Shown here: one piece after another, positions 1 to 10,061 of the stretch
Layout: each line of letters starts with the position of its first letter
Position numbering within the stretch: the stretch's first letter is position 1
Sequence record: MN187550.1
Reading direction: 5' to 3' (one strand)
Length of the DNA stretch: 39,293 bases
Source of the DNA: Escherichia phage phiv142-3
The notes under the pieces: generated by a model
What the model saw: the letters and a program-made list of their open reading frames with translations, nothing else
Told to the model about the DNA's origin: nothing
The model's database searches: none
Translations under genes and position numbers: made by a program

Positions 1-17
1 AATCATTCCCACTCAAT
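1..17. repeat. 17-bp direct repeat AATCATTCCCACTCAAT (putative att core, left copy)
   Basis: Identical 17-mer at 39277-39293; the window ends inside the repeat so it may extend further; integrase gene lies next to the right copy. Confidence 0.6.
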
Positions 18-127
18 TATTTACGACACACATAACCAATTGAGTGATAACATTTTTCCAAAGATGAATTTTTCTCGTACCGTTTTATATACCGTCACCG
101 GAAATCAGTACCATGAAAAATGCCATG

Positions 128-610
128 CTATCTGGTCAGGGTGTCGTACTGTTTTTCGCAGACTCTTCCGGCTTCGGCTGCCCGGTCAGCATACTCTGCC
201 AGTTGTCTATTTCTCTCGAGAGATTTGCTGAACACGTCGGCAAGCAAAACTCCGGTGTCTGCGGCTGACGACCCAGCGCCGACAATGGCGTTATAGTGCC
301 TGAGCTGCTCACGGATGGCAACGAGCTGTTGCTGCAACCGGCCAGCGCGAGCGGCAGCATCAAGAGCATCATTGCGCGCCTGGTCGATCCTCTGCTGCGC
401 TTCACGTTCATTGATCGATTTCTCCTGTTCGTAGTGCTGACGAACTCTCTCATCTTCGGTTTTGCGGTCTTCTTTCGCCTGTGCATACCCAGCGTCGTAC
501 TGACGACTGCCGTGCACATTCCAGGCAACAACTCCTGATATGACCAGAACAGCAAGCACCGCCATGATAATCAACTGTTTACGGTATGCTTTTACGAATG
601 ACCAGATCAT
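128..610 (-). CDS. Rz-like i-spanin (inner-membrane spanin)
   Basis: 160 aa with N-terminal TM segment then charged coiled-coil-like region; directly downstream of endolysin with 4-bp overlap; a lipoprotein ORF is embedded in the +1 frame. Confidence 0.6.
136..411 (-). CDS. Rz1-like o-spanin (outer-membrane lipoprotein) embedded in the i-spanin gene
   Basis: Alternate frame within 136..555 encodes [26 protein letters not shown]: basic n-region, hydrophobic core, lipobox LAGC, then a Pro/Ser-rich mature part. Start at M49 chosen (M62 is the alternative). Confidence 0.5.
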   Translation of the reverse strand: MNVKRSRGSTRRAMMLLMLPLALAGCSNSSLPSVSSSGTITPLSALGRQPQTPEFCLPTCSANLSREIDNWQSMLTGQPKPEESAKNSTTP

Positions 611-1236
611 ACAGCCAGCACCTTACTGGCAGTGACGTACCGCGCGCGCCGGTCGTCGATGCCATTCCTGCCACCATTGATAATCAGAGTTACACGTGCA
701 ATATCGCCGGTATACTTCATGCAACCTTTGCTGGAGAAGAACCACGCCGCGCTACGAGCCGCGTATTCGTCCTGCGCCAACAGTTCAGGATTCTCCAGCA
801 GGTCCACTTTCAGGCCGTTTCCGCAATCACGATAGTTATTCAAACCGGTAATCTGGATAAGTCCGCGGCCACGGTAATTCCAGCCATCGCCGGGGGCATT
901 GTTCCCCATGCGTTTGCTGTACACCAGATTGGCAATCGCTCTCTGGCGCTCAAGTGGCAATGGTGGTTCGCCTGCGCGTCGCCCCAATGCGTTGGCCTGT
1001 CCCTGAGTGAGACGCCCAGCCCGAACAAAGTTAGCCAGACCGCTGACGCTGTAGTTGAAATTCTCCTGCAACCGGGTGAAGCCCCCAGACTCATGCCCGA
1101 CCTGAGCAATAAACATTGCCTGATCTTCTGCTTTGCTGATACCAAACTCTTTCATCGCAGAAGTTATATGCGAGAACCAGCGTGCGGCCAGCGACTCGCT
1201 AATACCAGCAGCTCGCTGGAATTGTTTAATCTCCAT
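607..1236 (-). CDS. endolysin, glycoside hydrolase family 19-like
   Basis: C-terminal 209 aa of ORF 607..1467 (start at MEIKQFQ...) carries the [12 protein letters not shown]...GRGLIQITG pattern typical of GH19-type phage lysins; the upstream extension in the track is hydrophobic and overlaps the preceding gene. Confidence 0.75.
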
Positions 1237-1534
1237 GTTTAGACCTCGATATTTTGAAAATCTGAACAACGTTACCGCGTGTTTTAATAACCGCGGCGAG
1301 CATGACAGCGTTGATAATGACCTCAGATAAATCCACAGCCATTGGCGTGCGTAACCAGATTGCATAGACGACACGAACAGGAATACTGGCCGCAGCAACA
1401 ATAAGGAAATAAGCAAGCCACCCTCCCCATCTTCGATGTTGAGAGCCGTTACGCCGGAATGTGACAACGCGAATTGCTATGCCAGTACAAATAACTGCAT
1501 TGGTGATAAGCAAAAAAAACTCATGCGTTACCAT
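1226..1534 (-). CDS. holin-like small membrane protein
   Basis: 102 aa with 2-3 predicted TM helices, immediately upstream of the endolysin with a short overlap; GGAG about 10 nt upstream of the ATG. Confidence 0.45.
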
Positions 1535-1925
1535 CGTCTTTTCTCCCCGGAATTAACTCGCGTGGATTATCGGAACGGTGATAGAGCCATATACCAATAC
1601 GCACAGCAACAATTGCTGACACGAATGCGCCAGCTGAGAAAACAATCCCTTTTTCAAAAGAGTCCTGCGTGATGGTAGGGATCAGGCTGGCTATGCCGAT
1701 AAGAATTGATGCTGCTGGTTTATAAAAAAGAAGGCCGCAGAGAAAGCTAAGCATCGACAAGAGTACACGACGACGAATAGGATACTCTACCGCAGAGGTA
1801 ACAAAAATTACCGCCCCAGCCAAAGCCCCCAAAGCAACCTCAGGAGGAACTCCTGCTATCACCGCCGCCAGAGAACTCATGCTAAGCCACTGATTTAAAG
1901 TTTCACTGGTTAGTTGAGCTGACAT
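1521..1925 (-). CDS. holin-like membrane protein (possible holin/antiholin partner)
   Basis: ORF 1521..1934; the ATG at 1925 (MSAQLTSE...) has a GGTGG RBS-like sequence just upstream, while the track start is GTG. Multiple hydrophobic segments. Confidence 0.45.
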   Translation of the reverse strand: MSAQLTSETLNQWLSMSSLAAVIAGVPPEVALGALAGAVIFVTSAVEYPIRRRVLLSMLSFLCGLLFYKPAASILIGIASLIPTITQDSFEKGIVFSAGAFVSAIVAVRIGIWLYHRSDNPRELIPGRKDDGNA

Positions 1926-2147
1926 GTTTTCCACCGTTTATATGCATAACTACCTCCTGAATAGTAAAGGCATTACGCATGATAAACCATTTATGGTTTT
2001 TTGTTACCCATGTATTGTCAATCCCCTTCCTTTCATGTCGATAATAAGGCTTGCCTTTTACATAACTCTGAAGAGATTGCAGTACAGAAATGATTCAAAA
2101 TATAGAGGATTAGTTGAATTCCGCACCATCAAATGGCGCGGTAGCAG

Positions 2148-2447
2148 TCAAATAGAGAAATAAACACAAAAACAAACAGTAACAGGAACAACAAAGTCAA
2201 ACAGGCTTCCAACATCCCATACGCGCGGATCAAAACCTCCCCACCACGGCATGTTGATACGTTTCCCTTTCCCAAACTTTTCTATCCAGCGATATTCTGC
2301 CTGGGTGTGTTCACGCGCAATGAAGAACGTACAACCGGCTATCGCACCGTAAGCCCAGTTTCCGGTAAAAAGACCGACCAGAACTTGTGCGACAACAGCG
2401 CAAAGTGCGTGAAGAATTGGTGTTATATCAACTTCTATATTCATCAT
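2148..2447 (-). CDS. small integral membrane protein (moron candidate)
   Basis: 99 aa, three hydrophobic segments; lies between tailspike and lysis genes in an AT-rich stretch; a TATATAAT -10-like sequence sits just after the tailspike stop. Confidence 0.5.
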   Translation of the reverse strand: MMNIEVDITPILHALCAVVAQVLVGLFTGNWAYGAIAGCTFFIAREHTQAEYRWIEKFGKGKRINMPWWGGFDPRVWDVGSLFDFVVPVTVCFCVYFSI

Positions 2448-2523
2448 AAATAACTCATTCGATTTTCACAAATAAGCCGCCAACAAGAAGACGGCATTAA
2501 CATTAAAATAATTATATATGATG

Positions 2524-4653
2524 CTATTCCTCAATACCTAACCTGCTTGAAACCTCCGGCATAACAGTAACCTGAAGGGTTTTTGATGAATCTGTGTTTT
2601 TAATTGCTATGCTGATATTGCCAGAAGTGCTGTTATTGTTTGACACTGTTATAGAGTTTGCATCCACCCCGAGTTTCGAATAAGCATCAGCAAAACTAAG
2701 ACCAACACTTCCACCAACAACTCTATATGAACCATCAATTCTGAATGACGATATATTGTTATTGCTAACATCTCTAATTAGAACCCATATAGAAACGCCC
2801 CTGAAAACAAGGCTTGCCCCTGATGGTATTTGAAGTGATACAGTTCCTGTGGAACCGGGGGGGATACTGCCAGTATATTTAGTTCCGTGCAGATATTTCC
2901 CCGGTAGGTCTAAATACGATGTGTCTGGATGTAATAAATTATGTATATGTCTGCTATCTATGCTTCCAGACAGAACCATAGAATCATTGCCATATTCAAT
3001 TATCCTTCCACCATCGTTACTTATTGTAAGTAATCCTTTGTTTCCTTTATTGTTTCTAACAGTTATATCAGAAGAATCCAGGCGGACAATTGATATATTT
3101 TTTTCTGATCCATGACAATAATTTGATGAAATTTCACCTGTAACAAGTGACGTACATAAAATGTCTGAACTTCCATCACTGTCGCCAGTAATAGTGTTGC
3201 AGGAAATTAATGCACCATATACCAGACCTGTCGGAGATTCTCCAAATTGCTCTATAGTAATCCGTTTTGTGGTATTTGCTGATATGGTTATATTATGAAC
3301 ATCGTCAGTTTGCGATGTTACTTTGATCCTTGATGAAACGGTATTTCCAGAAATAGTAACATTACTTGTATCATCCACCCATAAATATGACGAAAACGTA
3401 TTACCTGATATGACTGAGTTACTCACCATTGAGTTCTCAAGCTCACATGAACCATAGCTATTGTTATGGTCATAATTTCCTATAATCCTTACAAATCCAT
3501 TCTGGTTAATGAAGTTGTATGATGTTGCATTTTGTCCGCCATAAGTTGAGTTATGTGATGTTTCAGCATTTGTAACGCCTATATGTTGAAAATGACCGGC
3601 ATTTACAGAATCAGGAGCAACTGATGTACACCCTATTACTTTTGTGTTTTTGACAATTCTTGAATTAGGGTCATTCTCCAAATAATAGTTTTTTGCAACA
3701 AATGCCGTAGAGTAAAAGAAACCTTCAAATCTATTAAATAAAATCTGAATATCGTCATAATCTCTTTGGTCTTCATTTGCATAGCAATAAAATGCTCTTG
3801 AAGACTCGGAGTAATCCTTGCATTTCTGAACGCCAGATAAAAGTGTTCGGATTCTGCTAGATTTTATTCTAAATCCGTTGTGAATTAACGTTGCATCACC
3901 AACTAATGTTATTGGCTTAAACAATTCAACCTTATCAAAAACAAATTCACCACCATAAAATCCAAGTATAGCCCCTTCTGGTACTGCATTAATAGCATTT
4001 TGAATTGCTACAGTATCATCTGTTATGCCGTCTCCTTTTGCACCAAAATCACGAACACTAATGGTGTCTCTCATCTTATCCTGGAACGTTCGGTACACAG
4101 CCCCAGAACCATACTGAATAAACCAACCAAAACCACCAACAACCCCGGCGATTGCAGCATCGACATAATTACGCATTGAGCGATTATTTACAGCATCCTG
4201 CTCAAGTGATGGATCTGCAAGGTTAGAAATTCTGTTTTGCTTTGCATCGTAATATTTTGCAAGCAGAGAGGGCTTCATCAATGCACGTCTGAACCACCCA
4301 AAACATTGCTGGATCAGCATCGTCAGGTAGTCAAAGGCATCTTCATGCACTTCGGGGAAAAATTTTCCCTGATTGCGAAGGTCTGTCTCCTGCACTACAT
4401 CAAGCACACGATCTATCGTAATTCGCCATCCAGTAGCAAGCGGAGACAGAAGAACCACAGAACCGCCACTATAAGTGCCCGCCCCAGTTACCGTATAACC
4501 GGTATCCAGGACCAATTCTGTTACGTTCCCGTTCAGGTCAGACACCTGAACAACCAGGTCTGATTTTCTGAAAATTCGAAAAGTATACGGAAACGATGTC
4601 GTAACGCCGTTACCGGTGTATTCGTTGTGGTCAACTTCGGTTGAGACCGTCAT
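2524..4653 (-). CDS. tailspike / tail fibre with depolymerase-like C-terminal domain
   Basis: 709 aa. N-terminal ~200 aa resembles the conserved particle-attachment domain of T7 gp17-type podovirus tail fibres (YTGNGVTTSFPYTF...); from ...VRDFGAKGDGITDDT onward it looks like a pectate-lyase-type beta-helix. The C-terminal coding DNA is clearly AT-rich. Confidence 0.75.
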   Translation of the reverse strand: MTVSTEVDHNEYTGNGVTTSFPYTFRIFRKSDLVVQVSDLNGNVTELVLDTGYTVTGAGTYSGGSVVLLSPLATGWRITIDRVLDVVQETDLRNQGKFFPEVHEDAFDYLTMLIQQCFGWFRRALMKPSLLAKYYDAKQNRISNLADPSLEQDAVNNRSMRNYVDAAIAGVVGGFGWFIQYGSGAVYRTFQDKMRDTISVRDFGAKGDGITDDTVAIQNAINAVPEGAILGFYGGEFVFDKVELFKPITLVGDATLIHNGFRIKSSRIRTLLSGVQKCKDYSESSRAFYCYANEDQRDYDDIQILFNRFEGFFYSTAFVAKNYYLENDPNSRIVKNTKVIGCTSVAPDSVNAGHFQHIGVTNAETSHNSTYGGQNATSYNFINQNGFVRIIGNYDHNNSYGSCELENSMVSNSVISGNTFSSYLWVDDTSNVTISGNTVSSRIKVTSQTDDVHNITISANTTKRITIEQFGESPTGLVYGALISCNTITGDSDGSSDILCTSLVTGEISSNYCHGSEKNISIVRLDSSDITVRNNKGNKGLLTISNDGGRIIEYGNDSMVLSGSIDSRHIHNLLHPDTSYLDLPGKYLHGTKYTGSIPPGSTGTVSLQIPSGASLVFRGVSIWVLIRDVSNNNISSFRIDGSYRVVGGSVGLSFADAYSKLGVDANSITVSNNNSTSGNISIAIKNTDSSKTLQVTVMPEVSSRLGIEE

Positions 4654-4757
4654 GTTAAATCTCCAGATAGTCGCAGCACCCGTTGCGCCGCATATCTGGT
4701 TATTCTATTACCTGAAAAACCACATATGGATAGAAAGGCTGTAAATATGAATAGATA

Positions 4758-4772
4758 TTACCTTTCAGGTAA
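4758..4772. promoter_or_regulatory. operator-like palindrome TTACCTTTCAGGTAA (site S1)
   Basis: Perfect 5-bp inverted arms TTACC/GGTAA around a 5-bp centre, in the divergent region between tailspike and the small antirepressor-like gene; flanked by palindromic TTTGCAAA. Confidence 0.6.
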
Positions 4773-4809
4773 TTTGCAAAACGTGCTGGATAGCAAACAA
4801 ATTATTTGA

Positions 4810-5152: not shown

Positions 5153-5242
5153 ATTTACATCGCACTCCTCTTGTGCCATAGTAATCGGGCACTGGCAAAA
5201 TCCAGTGCCGGGATTGGTCTCCCGGATTACTAAGTGGCGCAT

Positions 5243-5265
5243 ACCACGCCAGACGTGGTTTTTTT
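5243..5265 (+). terminator. intrinsic terminator (ACCACG-loop-CGTGGT plus T7 tract) in the antirepressor leader
   Basis: GC-rich hairpin followed by TTTTTTT; preceded by two more hairpins (about 5188-5226); about 160 nt upstream of the antirepressor ATG. Confidence 0.5.
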
Positions 5266-5423
5266 ATGCGTATAGCACAGTCATGCCAGAATTATGGTGG
5301 GCTGAATGGGGGTCCGAAAGGACGCCGGTACCACTTAGGCCGGTAAGACCAACTCCGTTCAGTTCACCACCATCTGATTGGTCTCAGCGGTGGTGATGTA
5401 ATTCGCTAAGTGGAGACGCCATC

Positions 5424-6080
5424 ATGAACGCTCAACTCATCCCCGTATTCAACGGCACTATATCTAACGAAACAGCCCTACTTTGTAATGCCCGCGATCT
5501 GCACGCTTTTTTAGGTGTTAAAAAGGTGTTTGCAGCATGGATTACAAATCGCATATCAGAATACGAATTCATTGAAAATCAAGACTATATTTTGCTTTCC
5601 AATTTGGGAAAGCAAACATCTGGTAGAGGCGGCCACAACCGCAAAGAGTACCACCTCACCCTTGATACAGCCAAAGAGCTGGCGATGGTCGAGCGTAACG
5701 AAAAAGGTCGTCAGGTGCGACGCTACTTCATTGAATGCGAGAAACGTTTAAGACAACAAGAAACAAAAGTGGAGAAGGTCTTGTCAGGCTTCATGCCCGC
5801 CATTATGGAGGCGATCAAGCTGGAAGACAAAAAAGAATACAGCGCCCCACTGAAGCCCGGCTACCGCAGCCTGATTCATTCTCCGTCTGGTGTTCTCGGC
5901 CTGACGGAGAACTCACTGCTGATGAATCTGCTGAACAAGTTACAGGAAGACGGGCACGATGTATCGGGCGCGGCAGCGGAGCTGACCACCATGTTCTGCT
6001 ACATCGTCGGTGTGAGCAAATGCCTGCGTGATATCCAGACCCACGCGGAGTACATCAACGACAAGGCAGGGTTCTTCTGA
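5424..6080 (+). CDS. antirepressor (AntA-like N-terminal domain plus C-terminal domain)
   Basis: 218 aa; N-terminal region (...[10 protein letters not shown]...[17 protein letters not shown]...) resembles phage AntA/AntB antirepressor domains; GGAG RBS about 9 nt upstream. Confidence 0.7.
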
Positions 6081-6124
6081 CGGGCGGTGGCACAGGGATG
6101 TGCCTTTAAATAATTCTGTACAGA

Positions 6125-6167
6125 TTGCAGACTGTGGGTGAATAGCGTACTATTACCTTAAAGGTAA
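6125..6167 (+). promoter_or_regulatory. promoter (-35 TTGCAG, 17 bp, -10 TACTAT) fused to operator S3 TTACCTTAAAGGTAA (6153-6167)
   Basis: Same promoter-operator fusion as at 5110-5152; the operator is immediately followed by AGGAGG and the ATG at 6180. Confidence 0.55.
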
Positions 6168-6179
6168 AGGAGGCGCGAT

Positions 6180-6347
6180 ATGACAGCGTTGAAAAATCGT
6201 ACTCAGCACAATGAACAAGCCAAGCAATGCTGGGATGTCATTGGAAAAGTTATGCTTGGCCGCGCAAGCAAAGAGCGCGACAAGGATATGGTTTACCAGA
6301 CAGGAACATCTTTCAGCGACTTCAAGGCGGCATTTCGCTCCAAATAG
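6180..6347 (+). CDS. hypothetical 55-aa protein (below the ORF-track size cut-off)
   Basis: ATG with strong AAAGGAGG RBS 7 nt upstream; translation MTALKNRTQHNEQAKQCWDVIGKVMLGRASKERDKDMVYQTGTSFSDFKAAFRSK; first gene after the operator-controlled promoter. Confidence 0.5.
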   Translation: MTALKNRTQHNEQAKQCWDVIGKVMLGRASKERDKDMVYQTGTSFSDFKAAFRSK

Positions 6348-6367
6348 AAGCACATCAGGAGTTTTCC

Positions 6368-6808
6368 TTGAAGTTTAACATTAGAATATCTAATAGTTTT
6401 CTACATGGGGAAAGCAACACCCCTTTCGCTGTAGACGGACCTTTCCTTACTGATGATGAAATAAAAATCATACAAAGTTTTTTAGAGGATGTTGCCAATG
6501 GAAGGGCGCTTGTTGGAAAAAACAAGCCCTCGTGGGTTGATGATAACCATGATAAAATTCCCGGCTCAGACAATTATGAGCAAGAGAATTATTGGCATTA
6601 TCATTGTGGGCCAACATGGTATCCAAACACATTTAAGAATTATACCATTAACTTAAATTTCAACCCTGGCGGAAGGCATTCTAATGAATGCATTCATTAT
6701 GCAAAAAATGATAATGAAATTGTCATTGTTGGATTTTCAAGAGAACACATACCTTTCCTTTCATCAGATGGAAACAACAATCCGCTTTTTAATGATGAAG
6801 AAGAATAG
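6368..6808 (+). CDS. hypothetical AT-rich protein (~146 aa), probable TTG start
   Basis: Long open frame in strongly AT-rich DNA (part of ORF 6227..6808); no in-frame ATG after the upstream gene ends; AGGAG 6 nt upstream of the TTG at 6368; followed by an intrinsic terminator. Confidence 0.45.
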   Translation: MKFNIRISNSFLHGESNTPFAVDGPFLTDDEIKIIQSFLEDVANGRALVGKNKPSWVDDNHDKIPGSDNYEQENYWHYHCGPTWYPNTFKNYTINLNFNPGGRHSNECIHYAKNDNEIVIVGFSREHIPFLSSDGNNNPLFNDEEE

Positions 6809-7586: not shown

Positions 7587-10061
7587 TTATTGCGGAGTGA
7601 CATCCTGTGGTCGCCACCAGTATGTCTGGTTAAACTCTTTCTTCGAACGTTGCTCCATTTTACGCAAATAACCTGGTGAAAAATACTCCTGCATCTGGTT
7701 AAAGATCATGTGATCGAGAGCCGCCTTTAAGTACCAGAGATTCGCACCTGGCATCAGACCTTTCCCCAGCTTAACCAGATCACCACCAGTCTGCTCATTC
7801 TTCCCTTCCACAGCATTTAACGGTATGCCCTGAGCAATCTTCACTACGTCATCAACCAGACCAGCTACCGGGCCAAGCATCGACGCCAGTGCGCCGCTTC
7901 CGTACCTAGTGTGATCTGACAATAAAAAGTCACCGTAAAGGCCAAGACCACCACCTTTCAGTAGAGCACCAAGCCAAAATTTAGCAGCATCTTCTCCTGT
8001 CATCTCGCGAGGATTACGACCAGACGCAAGGTCGTTAAGTTGCTGCGACAAAGCGCCAAGAATGGTCGTACTGGCAATAAACGTCGCAATATATGCCGCA
8101 CGCCCACCAGCAGATGGAATACCCATAGCGCGTGACCAGTGACGCATAACCACCGAGATAGGGAACGATTTAAACAGGAAAACACTTCTCGTTAATTCAC
8201 CTTTCCATGTTCCACGCTGAATACCAGAACCGGTTATCAGTTGCTCACGTGCTCCCGGTGTAATAACAGCCATATCAACTTCTTCAGTTACGGCACCGAG
8301 CAGTTTACGCATTGCCTCAAATTTCACGCGTTCAGGCTCACCAAGATGTTTAACTGCTGAATCAGGGATACGCATAATGCTTTCCGGTGTCAGCATCGTA
8401 TTATTGCCGTTCCCCCAGTCCTCCTGTTGAGCCAGCTTCCATACGCTCCAGTCTGTGTCAGTAATCCCTTTGCTTTTCAGGATACGAAAATCAGAATCAT
8501 CGAGGCTACGAAGGTCTGGTGTCCGTGACACTACTTCTCCCAGGCTTCCCATCATGGTTACGCCATAGGCGCGCTTGTGCGCATCTGACCATGCTGTAAG
8601 CCCACTGGCACGCATTACCGCCGTTGCAGCCCAACGAGACACAGACGGCCCCATATTATCCATCGCCCAGCGGTTAACGCTGCCAAGTAGAGATTCCATC
8701 GCTAGACCAGCGCGGCGCGCCCGCGCAAGTTCTGTACGGTTCGTTGGGTCCATAGCTTCAAGCTGGTTGCGGAATAACTGGTTCATTGGAAGGTTGGTCA
8801 CCTTCGCAGACAGATACATGGTTCCAAGATCAGAGAACGATGACAGCAACGCGGATCCGAGTCTGCTGGCAACCAGCCAGTTGCGGATATTGTCAGACCA
8901 TCGCGCGATGTGCGGATTCGCTACAGGCTGTGTCTTTCCGGAAATAAAGTTGTACAGATTCTCTGTGTTGTTCGCCAGCCGCTCGACTTTACCGGTTTTA
9001 CTCGGGTTAGCTGTTGCCGTTTCTGCCTTCACCTGATCAAGAAGAGAGCGGAAAACATGATCGGGGTTTGGGCCATATGTTTCCACCAGTGCAATATCTT
9101 TACTGATACCTTCCAGGTGACCGACCATGATTTCCCATAGAGAGCGATCGCCATAAAGTTGTTGATATTGCAGATAGGAATCTGCATCTTTGAAATGTAT
9201 CTGTCGTGATGCATTACCACGGTTAGCACGTGCGCCGGAAATTCGCATTCCGGTATCAGTAAGCTTATTCAGCCCACCAGTAGCGATCGTGTTATAAGCC
9301 TCTCCAAGAAATGAAGACAACTCGGCATCGTTCATCAGTTGTCCATCGGCTCGGATATAATATTTGCGATCCAGCTTACCTATAACATCGCTAACCCACT
9401 TATCCTTTGATACCGCCCCAACCTTTTCCATAGAATGATGTTGAGGGATCCCCCAGTTTTCGAGATAGCCAATGTCCCCACCAGCATCATTAAACCGGCG
9501 GCGCAGTAGCTCTGTCACTTCTCTCCACGCCTTAGCACCTTTTCTTGCTTTAGCATTGCCAGTATTTTGCCCTCGCATTTCATATACCAGGTCACGCACG
9601 CCAGCTTCATCTTCAAACAGGCCAAAAAAGCGAGGATCAACTGCTTCAAATGCCTCCTGCAATTGACTCAATGCATAATCACGAGTGGCTTTTGTTCTGG
9701 ATTCAACAGAGAGGAAATTCGATTTACCGTCTGCATTAAAAGCAATAGTACGGTTAAGAGCGCCAAGTTTCCCATCAGCCCCTTGATAGCTATTGATAAA
9801 TTTATCCAATCTCTGACGTGCGGCTATAGTGAGGGCCACACGACGTTTCTTTAATGCCGCTTCTCGCTGTAATTCTTCAGATGCCAATTGTGCTGCACGA
9901 TATAGCCGCTCTGATTCGGAAAGTTGTCTCCACGACATCGGGTCATCACGAGCAATGGAGCGCATATTTCGATAAATGCGGTCTTCAATGTTCTGTATTT
10001 CTCGCGCCGTTAACGTGCGCTGCGCCGCCTGCTGGACCGCTTGTATACATTCCTGTCTCAT
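7587..10061 (-). CDS. large internal virion / ejection protein (T7 gp16-like position, distal part)
   Basis: 824 aa; position and size within the podovirus-like structural operon; Gly-rich hydrophobic C-terminal region. Confidence 0.6.
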   Translation of the reverse strand: MRQECIQAVQQAAQRTLTAREIQNIEDRIYRNMRSIARDDPMSWRQLSESERLYRAAQLASEELQREAALKKRRVALTIAARQRLDKFINSYQGADGKLGALNRTIAFNADGKSNFLSVESRTKATRDYALSQLQEAFEAVDPRFFGLFEDEAGVRDLVYEMRGQNTGNAKARKGAKAWREVTELLRRRFNDAGGDIGYLENWGIPQHHSMEKVGAVSKDKWVSDVIGKLDRKYYIRADGQLMNDAELSSFLGEAYNTIATGGLNKLTDTGMRISGARANRGNASRQIHFKDADSYLQYQQLYGDRSLWEIMVGHLEGISKDIALVETYGPNPDHVFRSLLDQVKAETATANPSKTGKVERLANNTENLYNFISGKTQPVANPHIARWSDNIRNWLVASRLGSALLSSFSDLGTMYLSAKVTNLPMNQLFRNQLEAMDPTNRTELARARRAGLAMESLLGSVNRWAMDNMGPSVSRWAATAVMRASGLTAWSDAHKRAYGVTMMGSLGEVVSRTPDLRSLDDSDFRILKSKGITDTDWSVWKLAQQEDWGNGNNTMLTPESIMRIPDSAVKHLGEPERVKFEAMRKLLGAVTEEVDMAVITPGAREQLITGSGIQRGTWKGELTRSVFLFKSFPISVVMRHWSRAMGIPSAGGRAAYIATFIASTTILGALSQQLNDLASGRNPREMTGEDAAKFWLGALLKGGGLGLYGDFLLSDHTRYGSGALASMLGPVAGLVDDVVKIAQGIPLNAVEGKNEQTGGDLVKLGKGLMPGANLWYLKAALDHMIFNQMQEYFSPGYLRKMEQRSKKEFNQTYWWRPQDVTPQ

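What the first reader, a model, noticed from the sequence alone, without database searches (positions are those of the whole stretch)
2148..4653. Mosaic tailspike with an AT-rich receptor-binding half and an adjacent small membrane-protein gene
Only the first ~200 codons of the tailspike (coding ~4050-4653) have phage-typical composition; the rest (2524 to ~4050), encoding a beta-helix depolymerase-like domain, is AT-rich. This pattern is typical of horizontally exchanged host-range modules. The neighbouring 99-aa three-TM protein (2148-2447) has its own TATAAT-containing promoter-like sequence, and small membrane proteins next to O-antigen-specific tailspikes are classic positions for O-antigen-modifying or superinfection-exclusion factors.
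Basis: partly seen in the sequence, partly recalled or inferred. Interest (0 to 1): 0.5.

Follow-up and report, generated by a model that had tools for sequence, protein, structure and literature searches.

The report
Swapped tailspike module plus unknown membrane gene
A temperate E. coli phage carries a tailspike whose AT-rich receptor-binding half was imported by recombination, a well-known process, and it travels with a small, highly conserved membrane-protein gene of unknown function that sits behind receptor-binding genes in many phage types and occurs in about a third of complete E. coli genomes.

Summary
The compositional break is real. Tailspike GC falls from 0.467 to 0.361 at codon ~209, and this stretch is the lowest-GC 1.5 kb of the window. 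It coincides with a recombination joint. P22-like prophages share window 4063-2193 at 98.2% nt identity, while sister Uetakevirus prophages share everything except about 4040-2430. The same receptor-binding domain sits at 97-99% aa identity on three different virion anchors. This is textbook anchor/RBD exchange (Pas et al. 2023), and the phage is 99% identical to deposited phage EC.W1-9.

The 99-aa ORF is a real gene (dN/dS 0.16-0.34; AF2 pLDDT 91.6, three helices). It belongs to an unannotated family (phrog_1443; no Pfam, NCBIfam or PADLOC hit) with a near-invariant RE..QAEYRWI...R...P..........W loop. It lies directly behind the RBP gene in 79 of 80 viral loci and in podo-, sipho- and myovirus backbones, and is in 1,819 of 5,426 complete E. 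coli genomes.

In sister phages the same slot holds oac, AT3-SGNH acetylase, or wzy plus its inhibitor, so the positional argument holds. An own promoter is not supported. The gene pairs with many unrelated RBDs, which argues against serotype-specific O-antigen modification. A serotype-independent exclusion or envelope function is my best guess and is inferred only.

The parts
4064..4653 (-). Tailspike codons 1 to ~197: the conserved virion-anchor (particle-binding) part of the Uetakevirus tailspike, with backbone-typical GC (0.467)
   Evidence: 91-94% aa identity over the first ~203-274 aa with other Uetakevirus prophage tailspikes. 98% nt identity to ZX5 over window 4072-4800. PHROG tail families match residues 1 to ~166-229. 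PDB Dpo31/Dpo36 N-terminal domain matches at E 1.6e-31.
2524..4063 (-). Tailspike codons ~197-709: AT-rich (GC 0.36) receptor-binding module of beta-helix type; this is the horizontally exchanged unit
   Evidence: GC change point at 4026. 98.2% nt identity to P22-like prophages L028/L030/L035 over 4063..2193. 97-99% aa identity on three anchor types. PF12708 match at residues 198-255. 46-52% aa relatives in Kaguna-, Gamaleya- and Vectrevirus phages and in Aeromonas phages.
2448..2523 (-).
   Evidence: The same spacing (77 nt by ORF coordinates) is present in L024-L028 and L114.
2148..2447 (-). 99-aa three-helix membrane protein, member of the uncharacterised family phrog_1443. It is the conserved right flank of the exchange unit: recombination joints map at ~2431-2437 and at 2193
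   Evidence: phrog_1443 E 6e-55. 557 homologs, all listed ones unnamed or 'hypothetical'. About 430 clusters at 50% identity. AF2 pLDDT 91.6. dN/dS 0.16-0.34. Joints.
1935..2147 (-). 213-nt intergenic region before the lysis cassette, conserved with the Uetakevirus backbone
   Evidence: 88-95% nt identity to L029/L036/L037/L039/L061 as part of the 2431..1 block. Promoter-like hits at 2041..2014 and 2007..1979 are not above chance.
1521..1934 (-). Context: holin-like membrane protein (homolog of epsilon15 gp23), first gene of the lysis cassette that bounds the slot
   Evidence: PF16931 Phage_holin_8 E 4e-12 and phrog_198 holin. Present downstream in 17 of 17 Uetakevirus-type loci.

Best explanation
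The region is a three-piece recombinational mosaic in an epsilon15/phiV10-like temperate podophage.

Piece 1 (4653-4064) encodes the conserved anchor that fixes the tailspike to the virion.

Piece 2 (4063 to ~2448) is an AT-rich beta-helix receptor-binding module with its 76-nt spacer. It was imported by homologous recombination and sets host range.

Piece 3 (2447-2148) is a small inner-membrane protein gene. It is conserved enough at the DNA level (83-94% nt between unrelated phage types) to serve as the right-hand homology arm for such swaps. As a result the module and the small gene move as one cassette between Uetakevirus, P22-like and Tail_spike_N-anchored phages.

These steps are shown: the joints, the cassette on three backbones, purifying selection on the small gene, and its near-universal position directly 3' of RBP genes.

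This step is inferred: the small protein is an accessory factor, not a virion or assembly part. It probably acts on a conserved host inner-membrane target or lipid-linked substrate through its invariant polar cluster (H13, R45, E46, E51, R63, D84). The cluster is probably at the cytoplasmic membrane face. The likely outcome is serotype-independent protection of the infected or lysogenic cell, either superinfection exclusion or a general change in envelope polysaccharide display. It is probably transcribed with the RBP gene rather than from a promoter of its own.
For: Mosaic: GC change point at 4026. L028-type P22-like prophages match window 4063..2193 at 98.2%. Five Uetakevirus prophages match outside ~4013..2431. 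The 60-nt identity tracks are complementary. Protein C-termini are 96% identical on different anchors. The RBD sits on three anchors at 97-99%. L114 has the same 77-nt gap followed by MMNIDVDITPILHALCAVVAQ.

Small gene is real and selected: dN/dS 0.16-0.34. Invariant residues persist across 120 representatives at 50% identity.

Position: 79 of 80 IMG/VR loci, plus lambdoid, P2-like, GpJ, esterase-tailspike and Kuttervirus-like contexts.

Accessory nature: absent from ZX5, phiV10, epsilon15, PAS61 and TL-2011b, and from phages with related RBDs (St11Ph5, fBC-Eco01). Truncated to 41 aa in virulent Kuttervirus KFSST3.

Slot equivalence with O-antigen conversion genes.

Prevalence: 1,819 of 5,426 complete E. 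coli genomes.

Cytoplasmic loop: 7 K/R in residues 45-78 against 0 in the N-tail (positive-inside rule, inference).

Against: The topology is ambiguous. Many homologs have basic C-tails, and TMHMM, as quoted in the phage 21 record, sees 2 TMDs with a periplasmic loop.

An intact copy lies between two tailspike genes on a 160-kb Kuttervirus-like contig, and distant homologs occur in Aeromonas jumbo phages. A purely lysogeny-linked role therefore does not fit every case.

Tight coupling to late RBP genes (gaps -6 to +35 nt) is unusual for lysogenic-conversion genes, which in sister phages are often on the opposite strand.

One Aeromonas copy is chromosomal with no phage genes nearby.
Confidence: 0.55

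Rival explanations
1. The small protein is a serotype-converting O-antigen modifier matched to its tailspike. For example, it could inhibit the host O-antigen polymerase or chain-length regulator, like epsilon15 gp22 or phage D3 Iap, and so protect lysogens from phages that use the same O-antigen.
For: It occupies exactly the slot that holds oac, AT3-SGNH acetylase, or wzy plus iap in sister Uetakeviruses. In P22-like phage Gally it sits between tailspike and integrase. It co-transfers with the RBD as one cassette. Most neighbouring RBPs are polysaccharide-directed: beta-helix, SGNH esterase or S74 types. Small inhibitor peptides of this kind do exist.
Against: The same protein, with 76-100% identity and an invariant loop, follows at least 6 different tailspike C-termini within Uetakevirus and many unrelated fibres elsewhere. 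It is conserved from Escherichia to Aeromonas and Comamonas, whose O-antigens and Wzy proteins differ. It is not related to gp22 (hhalign probability 0.3%) or to Acyl_transf_3, Gtr or Wzy families (no Pfam or NCBIfam hit). It sits on the same strand as, and tightly coupled to, a late gene.
Confidence: 0.1
2. The small protein works in the lytic cycle together with the RBP. It might be a membrane factor that helps tailspike or fibre maturation or virion release, or that stops progeny from being wasted on the dying cell.
For: It is almost always co-oriented with and within -6 to +35 nt of the RBP gene, inside late operons. An intact copy lies between tailspike genes of a Kuttervirus-like 160-kb contig. 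The predicted spacer RNA pairs the small gene's AUGAUG with CAUCAU just after the tailspike stop codon, which would couple its translation to tailspike translation (z = -2.8).
Against: The RBPs involved have unrelated folds and assembly routes: beta-helix spikes, S74 self-chaperoning fibres, GpJ. Phages with the same anchor (ZX5, phiV10) or related RBDs (St11Ph5, fBC-Eco01) lack the gene and are viable. It has decayed to a 41-aa remnant in virulent KFSST3. An integral membrane protein is an unlikely chaperone for cytoplasmic spike folding.
Confidence: 0.12
3. The small protein is a lysis-cassette component (holin, antiholin or lysis regulator), because in this phage it lies immediately upstream of two holin-like genes, the endolysin and the spanin.
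For: It is a small three-helix membrane protein directly upstream of Phage_holin_8 and Phage_holin_3_7 genes on the same strand. The arrangement is the same in 17 of 17 Uetakevirus-type loci and in L111.
Against: In the P22-like, lambdoid and P2-like loci examined it follows the RBP gene with no lysis genes among its listed neighbours. It gives no match to any holin family in Pfam or PHROGs. From my own knowledge of holins, its 34-residue strongly conserved polar loop and frequent lack of a charged C-tail are atypical for them. A 213-nt intergenic region separates it from the lysis genes.
Confidence: 0.06
4. The gene persists mainly as a hitch-hiking recombination linker. Its conserved DNA promotes RBD exchange, and it is carried along without conferring a phenotype of its own.
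For: Recombination joints map to its two ends (2431-2437 and 2193). It is 83-94% identical at the nt level between otherwise unrelated phages. Pas et al. 2023 found conserved flanking motifs only in lytic genera and none in Uetake- or Lederbergvirus prophages (PMC10408124), leaving room for a gene-sized flank.
Against: Protein-level purifying selection is clear: dN/dS 0.16-0.34, and near-invariant residues remain after synonymous sites are saturated (dS not computable for Comamonas, Leclercia and Aeromonas copies). The fold is confidently predicted. A chromosomal copy exists without phage context.
Confidence: 0.1

Closest known systems
Modular O-antigen-specific tailspikes of Uetakevirus and Lederbergvirus (phiV10, epsilon15, HK620, P22), as analysed by Pas et al. 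2023 (PMC10408124)
   Same: Conserved N-terminal anchor of about 200 aa, here with the joint at codon ~197-221. Exchangeable C-terminal beta-helix RBD shared across Uetake-, Lederberg-, Kutter-like, Kaguna- and Gamaleyavirus backbones.
   Different: This RBD subtype's receptor is not assigned. Its nearest studied relatives are only 47-52% identical (St11Ph5 gp66, fBC-Eco01 tailspike). In this case the downstream exchange flank is a conserved gene rather than the short non-coding motif that the paper described for lytic genera only.
Lysogenic-conversion genes behind the tailspike: phiV10 Oac, epsilon15 gp21 (Wzy-like) and gp22 (alpha-polymerase inhibitor), and the PAS61 and TL-2011b acetylases
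   Same: Same genomic slot between the tailspike and the holin-like gene. All are membrane proteins and all are dispensable for virion formation.
   Different: No sequence or profile similarity. Those genes are serotype-matched and, in epsilon15 and phiV10, on the opposite strand. This gene is co-oriented with the tailspike, tightly coupled to it in most relatives, paired with many RBDs, and found in sipho- and myoviruses too.
Small inner-membrane superinfection-exclusion proteins (T4 Imm, P22 SieA, HK97 gp15) and RBP-adjacent exclusion lipoproteins (T5 Llp, phi80/N15 Cor); comparison from my own knowledge
   Same: Small phage-encoded membrane proteins that are accessory to the virion; Llp and Cor lie next to receptor-binding genes.
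   Different: No detectable homology: the PHROG hit is a family of unknown function and PADLOC gives none. Known Sie proteins are specific to a phage group or receptor. This family's loop is invariant across phages with different receptors and DNA-delivery machines, which suggests a host target rather than a phage target.
PHROG family phrog_1443 (unknown function)
   Same: Full-length match, E 6e-55, residues 6-99 to profile positions 1-94 of 97.
   Different: Nothing differs; this is the family. It has no annotation, no Pfam or NCBIfam model, and no paper found.

Membership tests
Uetakevirus modular tailspike (anchor plus RBD) | N-terminal ~200-aa anchor homologous to phiV10/epsilon15 tailspike N-terminus | tested here: met
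   PHROG tail families align to residues 1 to ~166-229. 90.5% nt identity to phiV10 over window ~4530-4800 and 98.6% to ZX5. 91-94% aa identity to other Uetakevirus prophage spikes over the first ~203-221 residues.
Uetakevirus modular tailspike (anchor plus RBD) | C-terminal right-handed parallel beta-helix receptor-binding/depolymerase domain | tested here: inconclusive
   PF12708 is above the gathering score but covers only residues 198-255. PDB sequence hits to beta-helix proteins (GH55, Sf6 and CBA120 spikes) cover only residues ~183-267. The AF2 model failed (pLDDT 38.8). RefSeq names it 'glycosyl hydrolase family 28-related'.
Uetakevirus modular tailspike (anchor plus RBD) | Binds or cleaves a specific O-antigen | not testable with these tools
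   Needs enzymology or host-range data. Serotyping the 31 lysogens would give an indirect answer.
O-antigen acetyltransferases (Acyl_transf_3 / Oac) | AT3 domain, ~10 TM, >300 aa | tested here: not met
   99 aa, no Pfam or NCBIfam hit. The TL-2011b and PAS61 slot genes do hit PF01757.
Gtr glucosylation cassette (GtrA/GtrB/GtrC) | GtrA-like 4-TM flippase with GtrB and GtrC partners adjacent | tested here: not met
   No Pfam hit. No partner genes: the slot holds only this ORF between the tailspike and the holin-like gene.
Epsilon15 gp22 / O-polymerase inhibitor peptides | Sequence or profile similarity to gp22 | tested here: not met
   hhalign probability 0.3%, 5 aligned columns.
Holins | Match to a holin family; location in lysis cassettes across phages | tested here: not met
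   No holin family in Pfam or PHROGs for this ORF, while both neighbours match. In P22-like, lambdoid and P2-like loci it follows RBP genes with no lysis genes among its listed neighbours.
Known anti-phage defence / superinfection-exclusion proteins | Match to a PADLOC model or to a PHROG annotated as exclusion | tested here: not met
   PADLOC gave 0 families. The only PHROG hits are of unknown function. Direct pairwise comparison with Imm, SieA or gp15 was not done.
Known anti-phage defence / superinfection-exclusion proteins | Expression protects cells from phage infection | not testable with these tools
   Needs plating-efficiency, adsorption and DNA-entry assays.
phrog_1443 | Full-length profile match | tested here: met
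   E 6.2e-55, 184 bits, residues 6-99 to profile 1-94/97.

The most novel reading that the evidence does not exclude
The 99-aa protein represents an unrecognised class of phage accessory factor. It would be a minimal three-helix inner-membrane protein, possibly a small enzyme or a regulator acting on a conserved lipid-linked or membrane step. It would give serotype-independent protection or envelope remodelling. It would also double as the gene-sized homology arm that lets temperate phages of different families swap receptor-binding modules. Given its presence in about 34% of complete E. coli genomes, often in several copies, it would be one of the most common uncharacterised prophage functions in the species.
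Probability: 0.3. Interest if true: 0.65.

Novelty: new member of a known kind. Interest (0 to 1): 0.4.

Why it matters
The tailspike mosaic is ordinary biology, but here the exchange is caught almost in the act, with 98% identical cassettes on three backbones. That makes it a clean worked example for engineering host range.

The more useful result concerns the small gene. It is an unannotated, strongly conserved membrane protein that follows receptor-binding genes in podo-, sipho- and myoviruses, and it is present in about a third of complete E. coli genomes. If it turns out to block superinfection or change the envelope, it would affect phage-therapy host-range predictions and serotype inference from prophage RBPs. 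It also offers a concrete candidate for the downstream recombination flank that Pas et al. (2023) could not find in temperate genera.

Tried and rejected
- **AF2 of the RBD:** the alignment was shallow (7 near-identical rows) and pLDDT was 38.8, so the model was discarded and no fold search was run on it.
- **afdb50 fold library:** not available.
- **Pfam, NCBIfam and PADLOC for the small protein:** nothing.
- **Profile search of 1.8 billion representatives:** all 150 listed hits are stand-alone proteins of 58-142 aa; no informative fusion.
- **Epsilon15 gp22:** not homologous.
- **Kapi1 hyp24:** experimentally negative for LPS change (PMC8787464) and looked like a direct test, but it is a 34-aa ORF on the other strand and Kapi1 has no family member.
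- **Gifsy GiPD474:** an ATPase-domain protein, unrelated.
- **Four literature searches:** no paper on the family.
- **O-serogroup of the 31 lysogens:** considered but not done. The tools cannot target the rfb locus of named genomes efficiently.
- **Lipoprotein reading:** rejected. There is no lipobox and Cys16 is not conserved.
- **Classical signal peptide:** rejected. The N-tail is acidic with no K/R.
Full report
**What the window is.** The 39.3-kb window is an epsilon15/phiV10-like (Uetakevirus-type) temperate podophage. The stretch 1900-4800 is 99.2% identical to Escherichia phage EC.W1-9. The tailspike plus small-gene pair (2100-4700) occurs at 99.5% identity or more as a prophage in 31 complete E. 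coli genomes. On the minus strand the order is:

- tailspike, 4653..2524, 709 aa
- 76-nt spacer
- 99-aa ORF, 2447..2148
- 213-nt spacer
- holin-like gene (Phage_holin_8)
- holin (Phage_holin_3_7)
- GH19 endolysin
- Rz-like spanin

**Checking the observation.** The compositional break is real and sharp.

| Measure | Anchor part (4050-4653) | Receptor-binding part (2524-4049) |
|---|---|---|
| GC | 0.467 | 0.362 |
| GC3 per 50 codons | 0.40-0.54 | 0.12-0.36 |

A likelihood change point falls at codon 209 (window 4026). The segment is the lowest-GC 1.5-kb stretch in the window, about 3.9 sd below the mean. The small ORF has GC 0.447 and the spacer 0.29.

The promoter part of the observation does not hold. 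The TATAAT at 2516-2511 has no usable -35 and lies upstream of a terminator-like hairpin (2495-2476). Promoter-like hits in the region (8) are no more frequent than in shuffles (10.0 +/- 3.2). The one hit near the gene has its -10 hexamer overlapping the start codon.

**The tailspike mosaic.** Residues 1 to ~200 match the anchor of Uetakevirus tailspikes and the N-terminal domain of the solved Dpo31/Dpo36 spikes. The rest begins with a Pect-lyase_RHGA_epim match above Pfam's threshold, plus matches to the first coils of solved beta-helix enzymes and spikes. An AF2 model of this half failed for lack of alignment depth, so the beta-helix assignment rests on sequence only.

The decisive evidence is comparative:

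- P22-like prophages (L028, L030, L035) share one uninterrupted stretch with the window, 4063..2193, at 98.2% nt identity; L040 matches over 4063..2203.
- Five other Uetakevirus prophages share the backbone on both sides and lose similarity only between about 3992-4118 and about 2430.
- In 60-nt windows the two kinds of identity track are exact complements.
- At protein level the C-terminal 525 residues are 96% identical between the 709-aa Uetakevirus spike and a 663-aa spike with the P22 head-binding N-terminus. A second pair (L029/L099) shows the same pattern.
- A database search found the same receptor-binding domain at 97-99% identity on three anchors: Uetakevirus, P22 head-binding (PF09008) and Tail_spike_N (PF18668).
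- More distant relatives (46-52%) sit in Kagunavirus fBC-Eco01, Gamaleyavirus St11Ph5 (gp66), Vectrevirus and several Aeromonas phages.

This is the anchor/RBD exchange described for these genera by Pas et al. 2023 (PMC10408124). It is a clean new example, not a new phenomenon.

**The small gene is real.** It matches phrog_1443 (unknown function) over its full length (E 6e-55). It has no Pfam, NCBIfam or PADLOC match. It has 557 homologs at E <= 0.001, and every listed one that carries a name is called hypothetical. There are about 430 clusters at 50% identity, and all 150 listed hits are stand-alone proteins of 58-142 aa.

Pairwise dN/dS against copies from other phage types is 0.16-0.34, and synonymous sites are saturated for the Comamonas, Leclercia and Aeromonas copies. 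AF2 gives a confident model (pLDDT 91.6) with helices 9-28, 31-57 and 79-98.

Across 120 distant representatives the residues kept at 90% or more are H13, R45, E46, Q49, A50, E51, R63, W77 and P88. Y52, R53, I55, P67 and D84 are kept at 75-90% (the numbering printed there is offset by 5). H13, R45/E46 and D84 lie near the same membrane face by their positions in the helices.

The loop 45-78 carries 7 Lys/Arg against none in the N-tail, so the positive-inside rule puts it in the cytoplasm (inference). The basic C-tails of many homologs and the 2-TMD prediction quoted in the phage 21 record keep the topology open. Fold searches returned only generic helical bundles.

**Where the small gene sits.** In 80 IMG/VR loci encoding close relatives, the gene directly follows:

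| Upstream gene type | Loci |
|---|---|
| Uetakevirus-type tailspike | 17 |
| P22-type tailspike | 6 |
| Lambdoid side-tail-fibre cluster | 53 |
| Unclassified by the script | 4 |

Three of the four unclassified loci are RBP genes cut by the contig start, giving 79 of 80. The gaps are mostly -6 to +35 nt. The 77-nt gap is specific to this cassette.

Divergent members show the same rule:

- phage 21, after stf and a 92-aa ORF
- a lambdoid prophage where it is the last phage gene
- P2-like fibres in Leclercia and Aeromonas, abutting or overlapping
- a 2,520-aa GpJ in Comamonas
- a GpJ plus fibre cluster
- SGNH-esterase tailspikes in a Uetakevirus-like and a siphovirus-like element
- between two tailspike genes of a 160-kb Kuttervirus-like contig

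Exceptions are a chromosomal Aeromonas copy with no phage genes nearby and distant homologs in Aeromonas jumbo phages that follow a helicase/terminase gene. In the virulent Kuttervirus KFSST3 only a 41-aa truncated remnant remains behind the third gene of its tailspike cluster. The gene alone is found in 1,819 of 5,426 complete E. coli genomes, with a median of 2 copies and a maximum of 7.

**The slot.** Between the tailspike and the holin-like gene:

| Phage | Slot content |
|---|---|
| epsilon15 | Wzy-like polymerase and alpha-polymerase inhibitor |
| phiV10 | oac, which confers immunity |
| TL-2011b | Acyl_transf_3 O-acetyltransferase |
| PAS61 | AT3-SGNH O-antigen acetylase |
| ZX5 | nothing |

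In P22-like Gally the homolog lies between tailspike and integrase. From my own knowledge, P22 carries gtrABC there.

The same data also weaken the specific idea of O-antigen modification. Within one genus the small gene follows at least six different spike C-termini (709, 729, 766, 771, 913 and 924 aa). It is unrelated to gp22 or to any modifier family. Its loop is essentially unchanged in hosts with unrelated O-antigens.

**Role in recombination.** The right-hand joints fall at the two ends of the small gene. The joint is at ~2431-2437 for exchanges within Uetakevirus and against P22-like Gally, and at 2193 for the P22-like cassette. On a third backbone (L114), the spike with the same RBD is followed after the same 77 nt by MMNIDVDITPILHALCAVVAQ, where the contig ends.

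The small gene is 83-94% identical at nt level between otherwise unrelated phages. It therefore plausibly acts as the downstream homology arm for RBD exchange in temperate phages. Pas et al. found short conserved flanking motifs only in lytic genera and none in Uetake- or Lederbergvirus prophages.

**Most likely mechanism.** Shown: the module was imported by recombination between the anchor/RBD hinge, near the conserved DFGAKGDGITDDT motif at codons ~202-214, and the small gene. Also shown: the small gene is a selected, accessory gene. It is absent from viable sister phages and from phages with related RBDs.

Inferred: the protein acts through its invariant polar cluster on a conserved host membrane target or substrate rather than on a phage-type-specific part. 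The outcome would be serotype-independent exclusion or envelope change. It is probably transcribed with the RBP gene.

I put about 0.9 on the architecture and about 0.35 on this functional reading. The rivals are a serotype-matched O-antigen modifier, a late lytic-cycle helper, a lysis component, and a mere linker. Each is weighed in its own section.

**Literature.** Four full-text searches found no paper on the family. Two leads were checked and dropped. Kapi1 hyp24, which tested negative for LPS change, is a 34-aa ORF and not a member. Gifsy GiPD474 is an ATPase-domain protein. The library lacks most subscription journals, so prior work cannot be excluded.

**Verdict.** The mosaic interpretation is supported and already explained by known biology. 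The functional guess for the small gene is reasonable by position but untested, and its serotype-specific version is unlikely. Interest is moderate and rests on the uncharacterised, very common small-gene family.

Noticed in passing
window 5189-5265 (+) and 5290-5374 (+): Rfam gathering-level hits to isrK Hfq-binding RNA (67.7 bits) and C4 antisense RNA (61.2 bits), directly upstream of the AntA/AntB antirepressor ORF 5424-6080. From my own knowledge, this resembles a P1/P7-type c4-ant immunity module.
   Followed up: no
window ~2857; L001 (PP445227.1): Deposited phage EC.W1-9 has a 1-nt deletion relative to the window inside the tailspike gene. That explains why its record splits the gene into a 625-aa 'eliminase' and a 47-aa ORF. 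The window and the RefSeq prophages have the intact 709-aa gene.
   Followed up: yes
window 2440-2530 (- strand RNA): The predicted fold of the spacer pairs CAUCAUA, which lies right after the tailspike stop codon, with UAUGAUG, the small gene's start codons. The terminator-like hairpin sits inside this pairing (-22.2 kcal/mol, z = -2.8, 3 of 200 shuffles as good). This could couple translation of the small gene to termination of tailspike translation. No sequence variation was available to test covariation.
   Followed up: partly
L115 (Salmonella phage KFSST3, Kuttervirus) 5980-6150: An unannotated, truncated 41-aa remnant of the small-gene family lies directly behind the third gene of the tailspike cluster of a virulent phage. 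It looks like a footprint of cassette import from temperate phages.
   Followed up: yes
L021 (Aeromonas rivipollensis chromosome) 8001-8309: A family member with no phage genes in 16 kb, lying between Pirin and RIO1-kinase genes and 1.2-3.6 kb from two lipid A acyltransferase (Lip_A_acyltrans) genes.
   Followed up: no
L046 4636-4917 and equivalents in L006-L016, L017, L003: In lambdoid prophages a second small ORF of 89-93 aa (phrog_1361, unknown function) regularly sits between the side-tail-fibre shaft gene and the distal tip gene, in the same clusters as the family gene.
   Followed up: partly
L017 (phage 21) 5386-8835: Classic lambdoid phage 21 carries a sitABCD iron/manganese transporter operon immediately after the family gene, on the opposite strand.
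   Followed up: no
window 6251-6750: A second low-GC patch (0.39; 0.35 at 6451-6750) overlaps a 193-aa ORF at 6227-6808 (+), downstream of the antirepressor. It may be another imported accessory gene.
   Followed up: no
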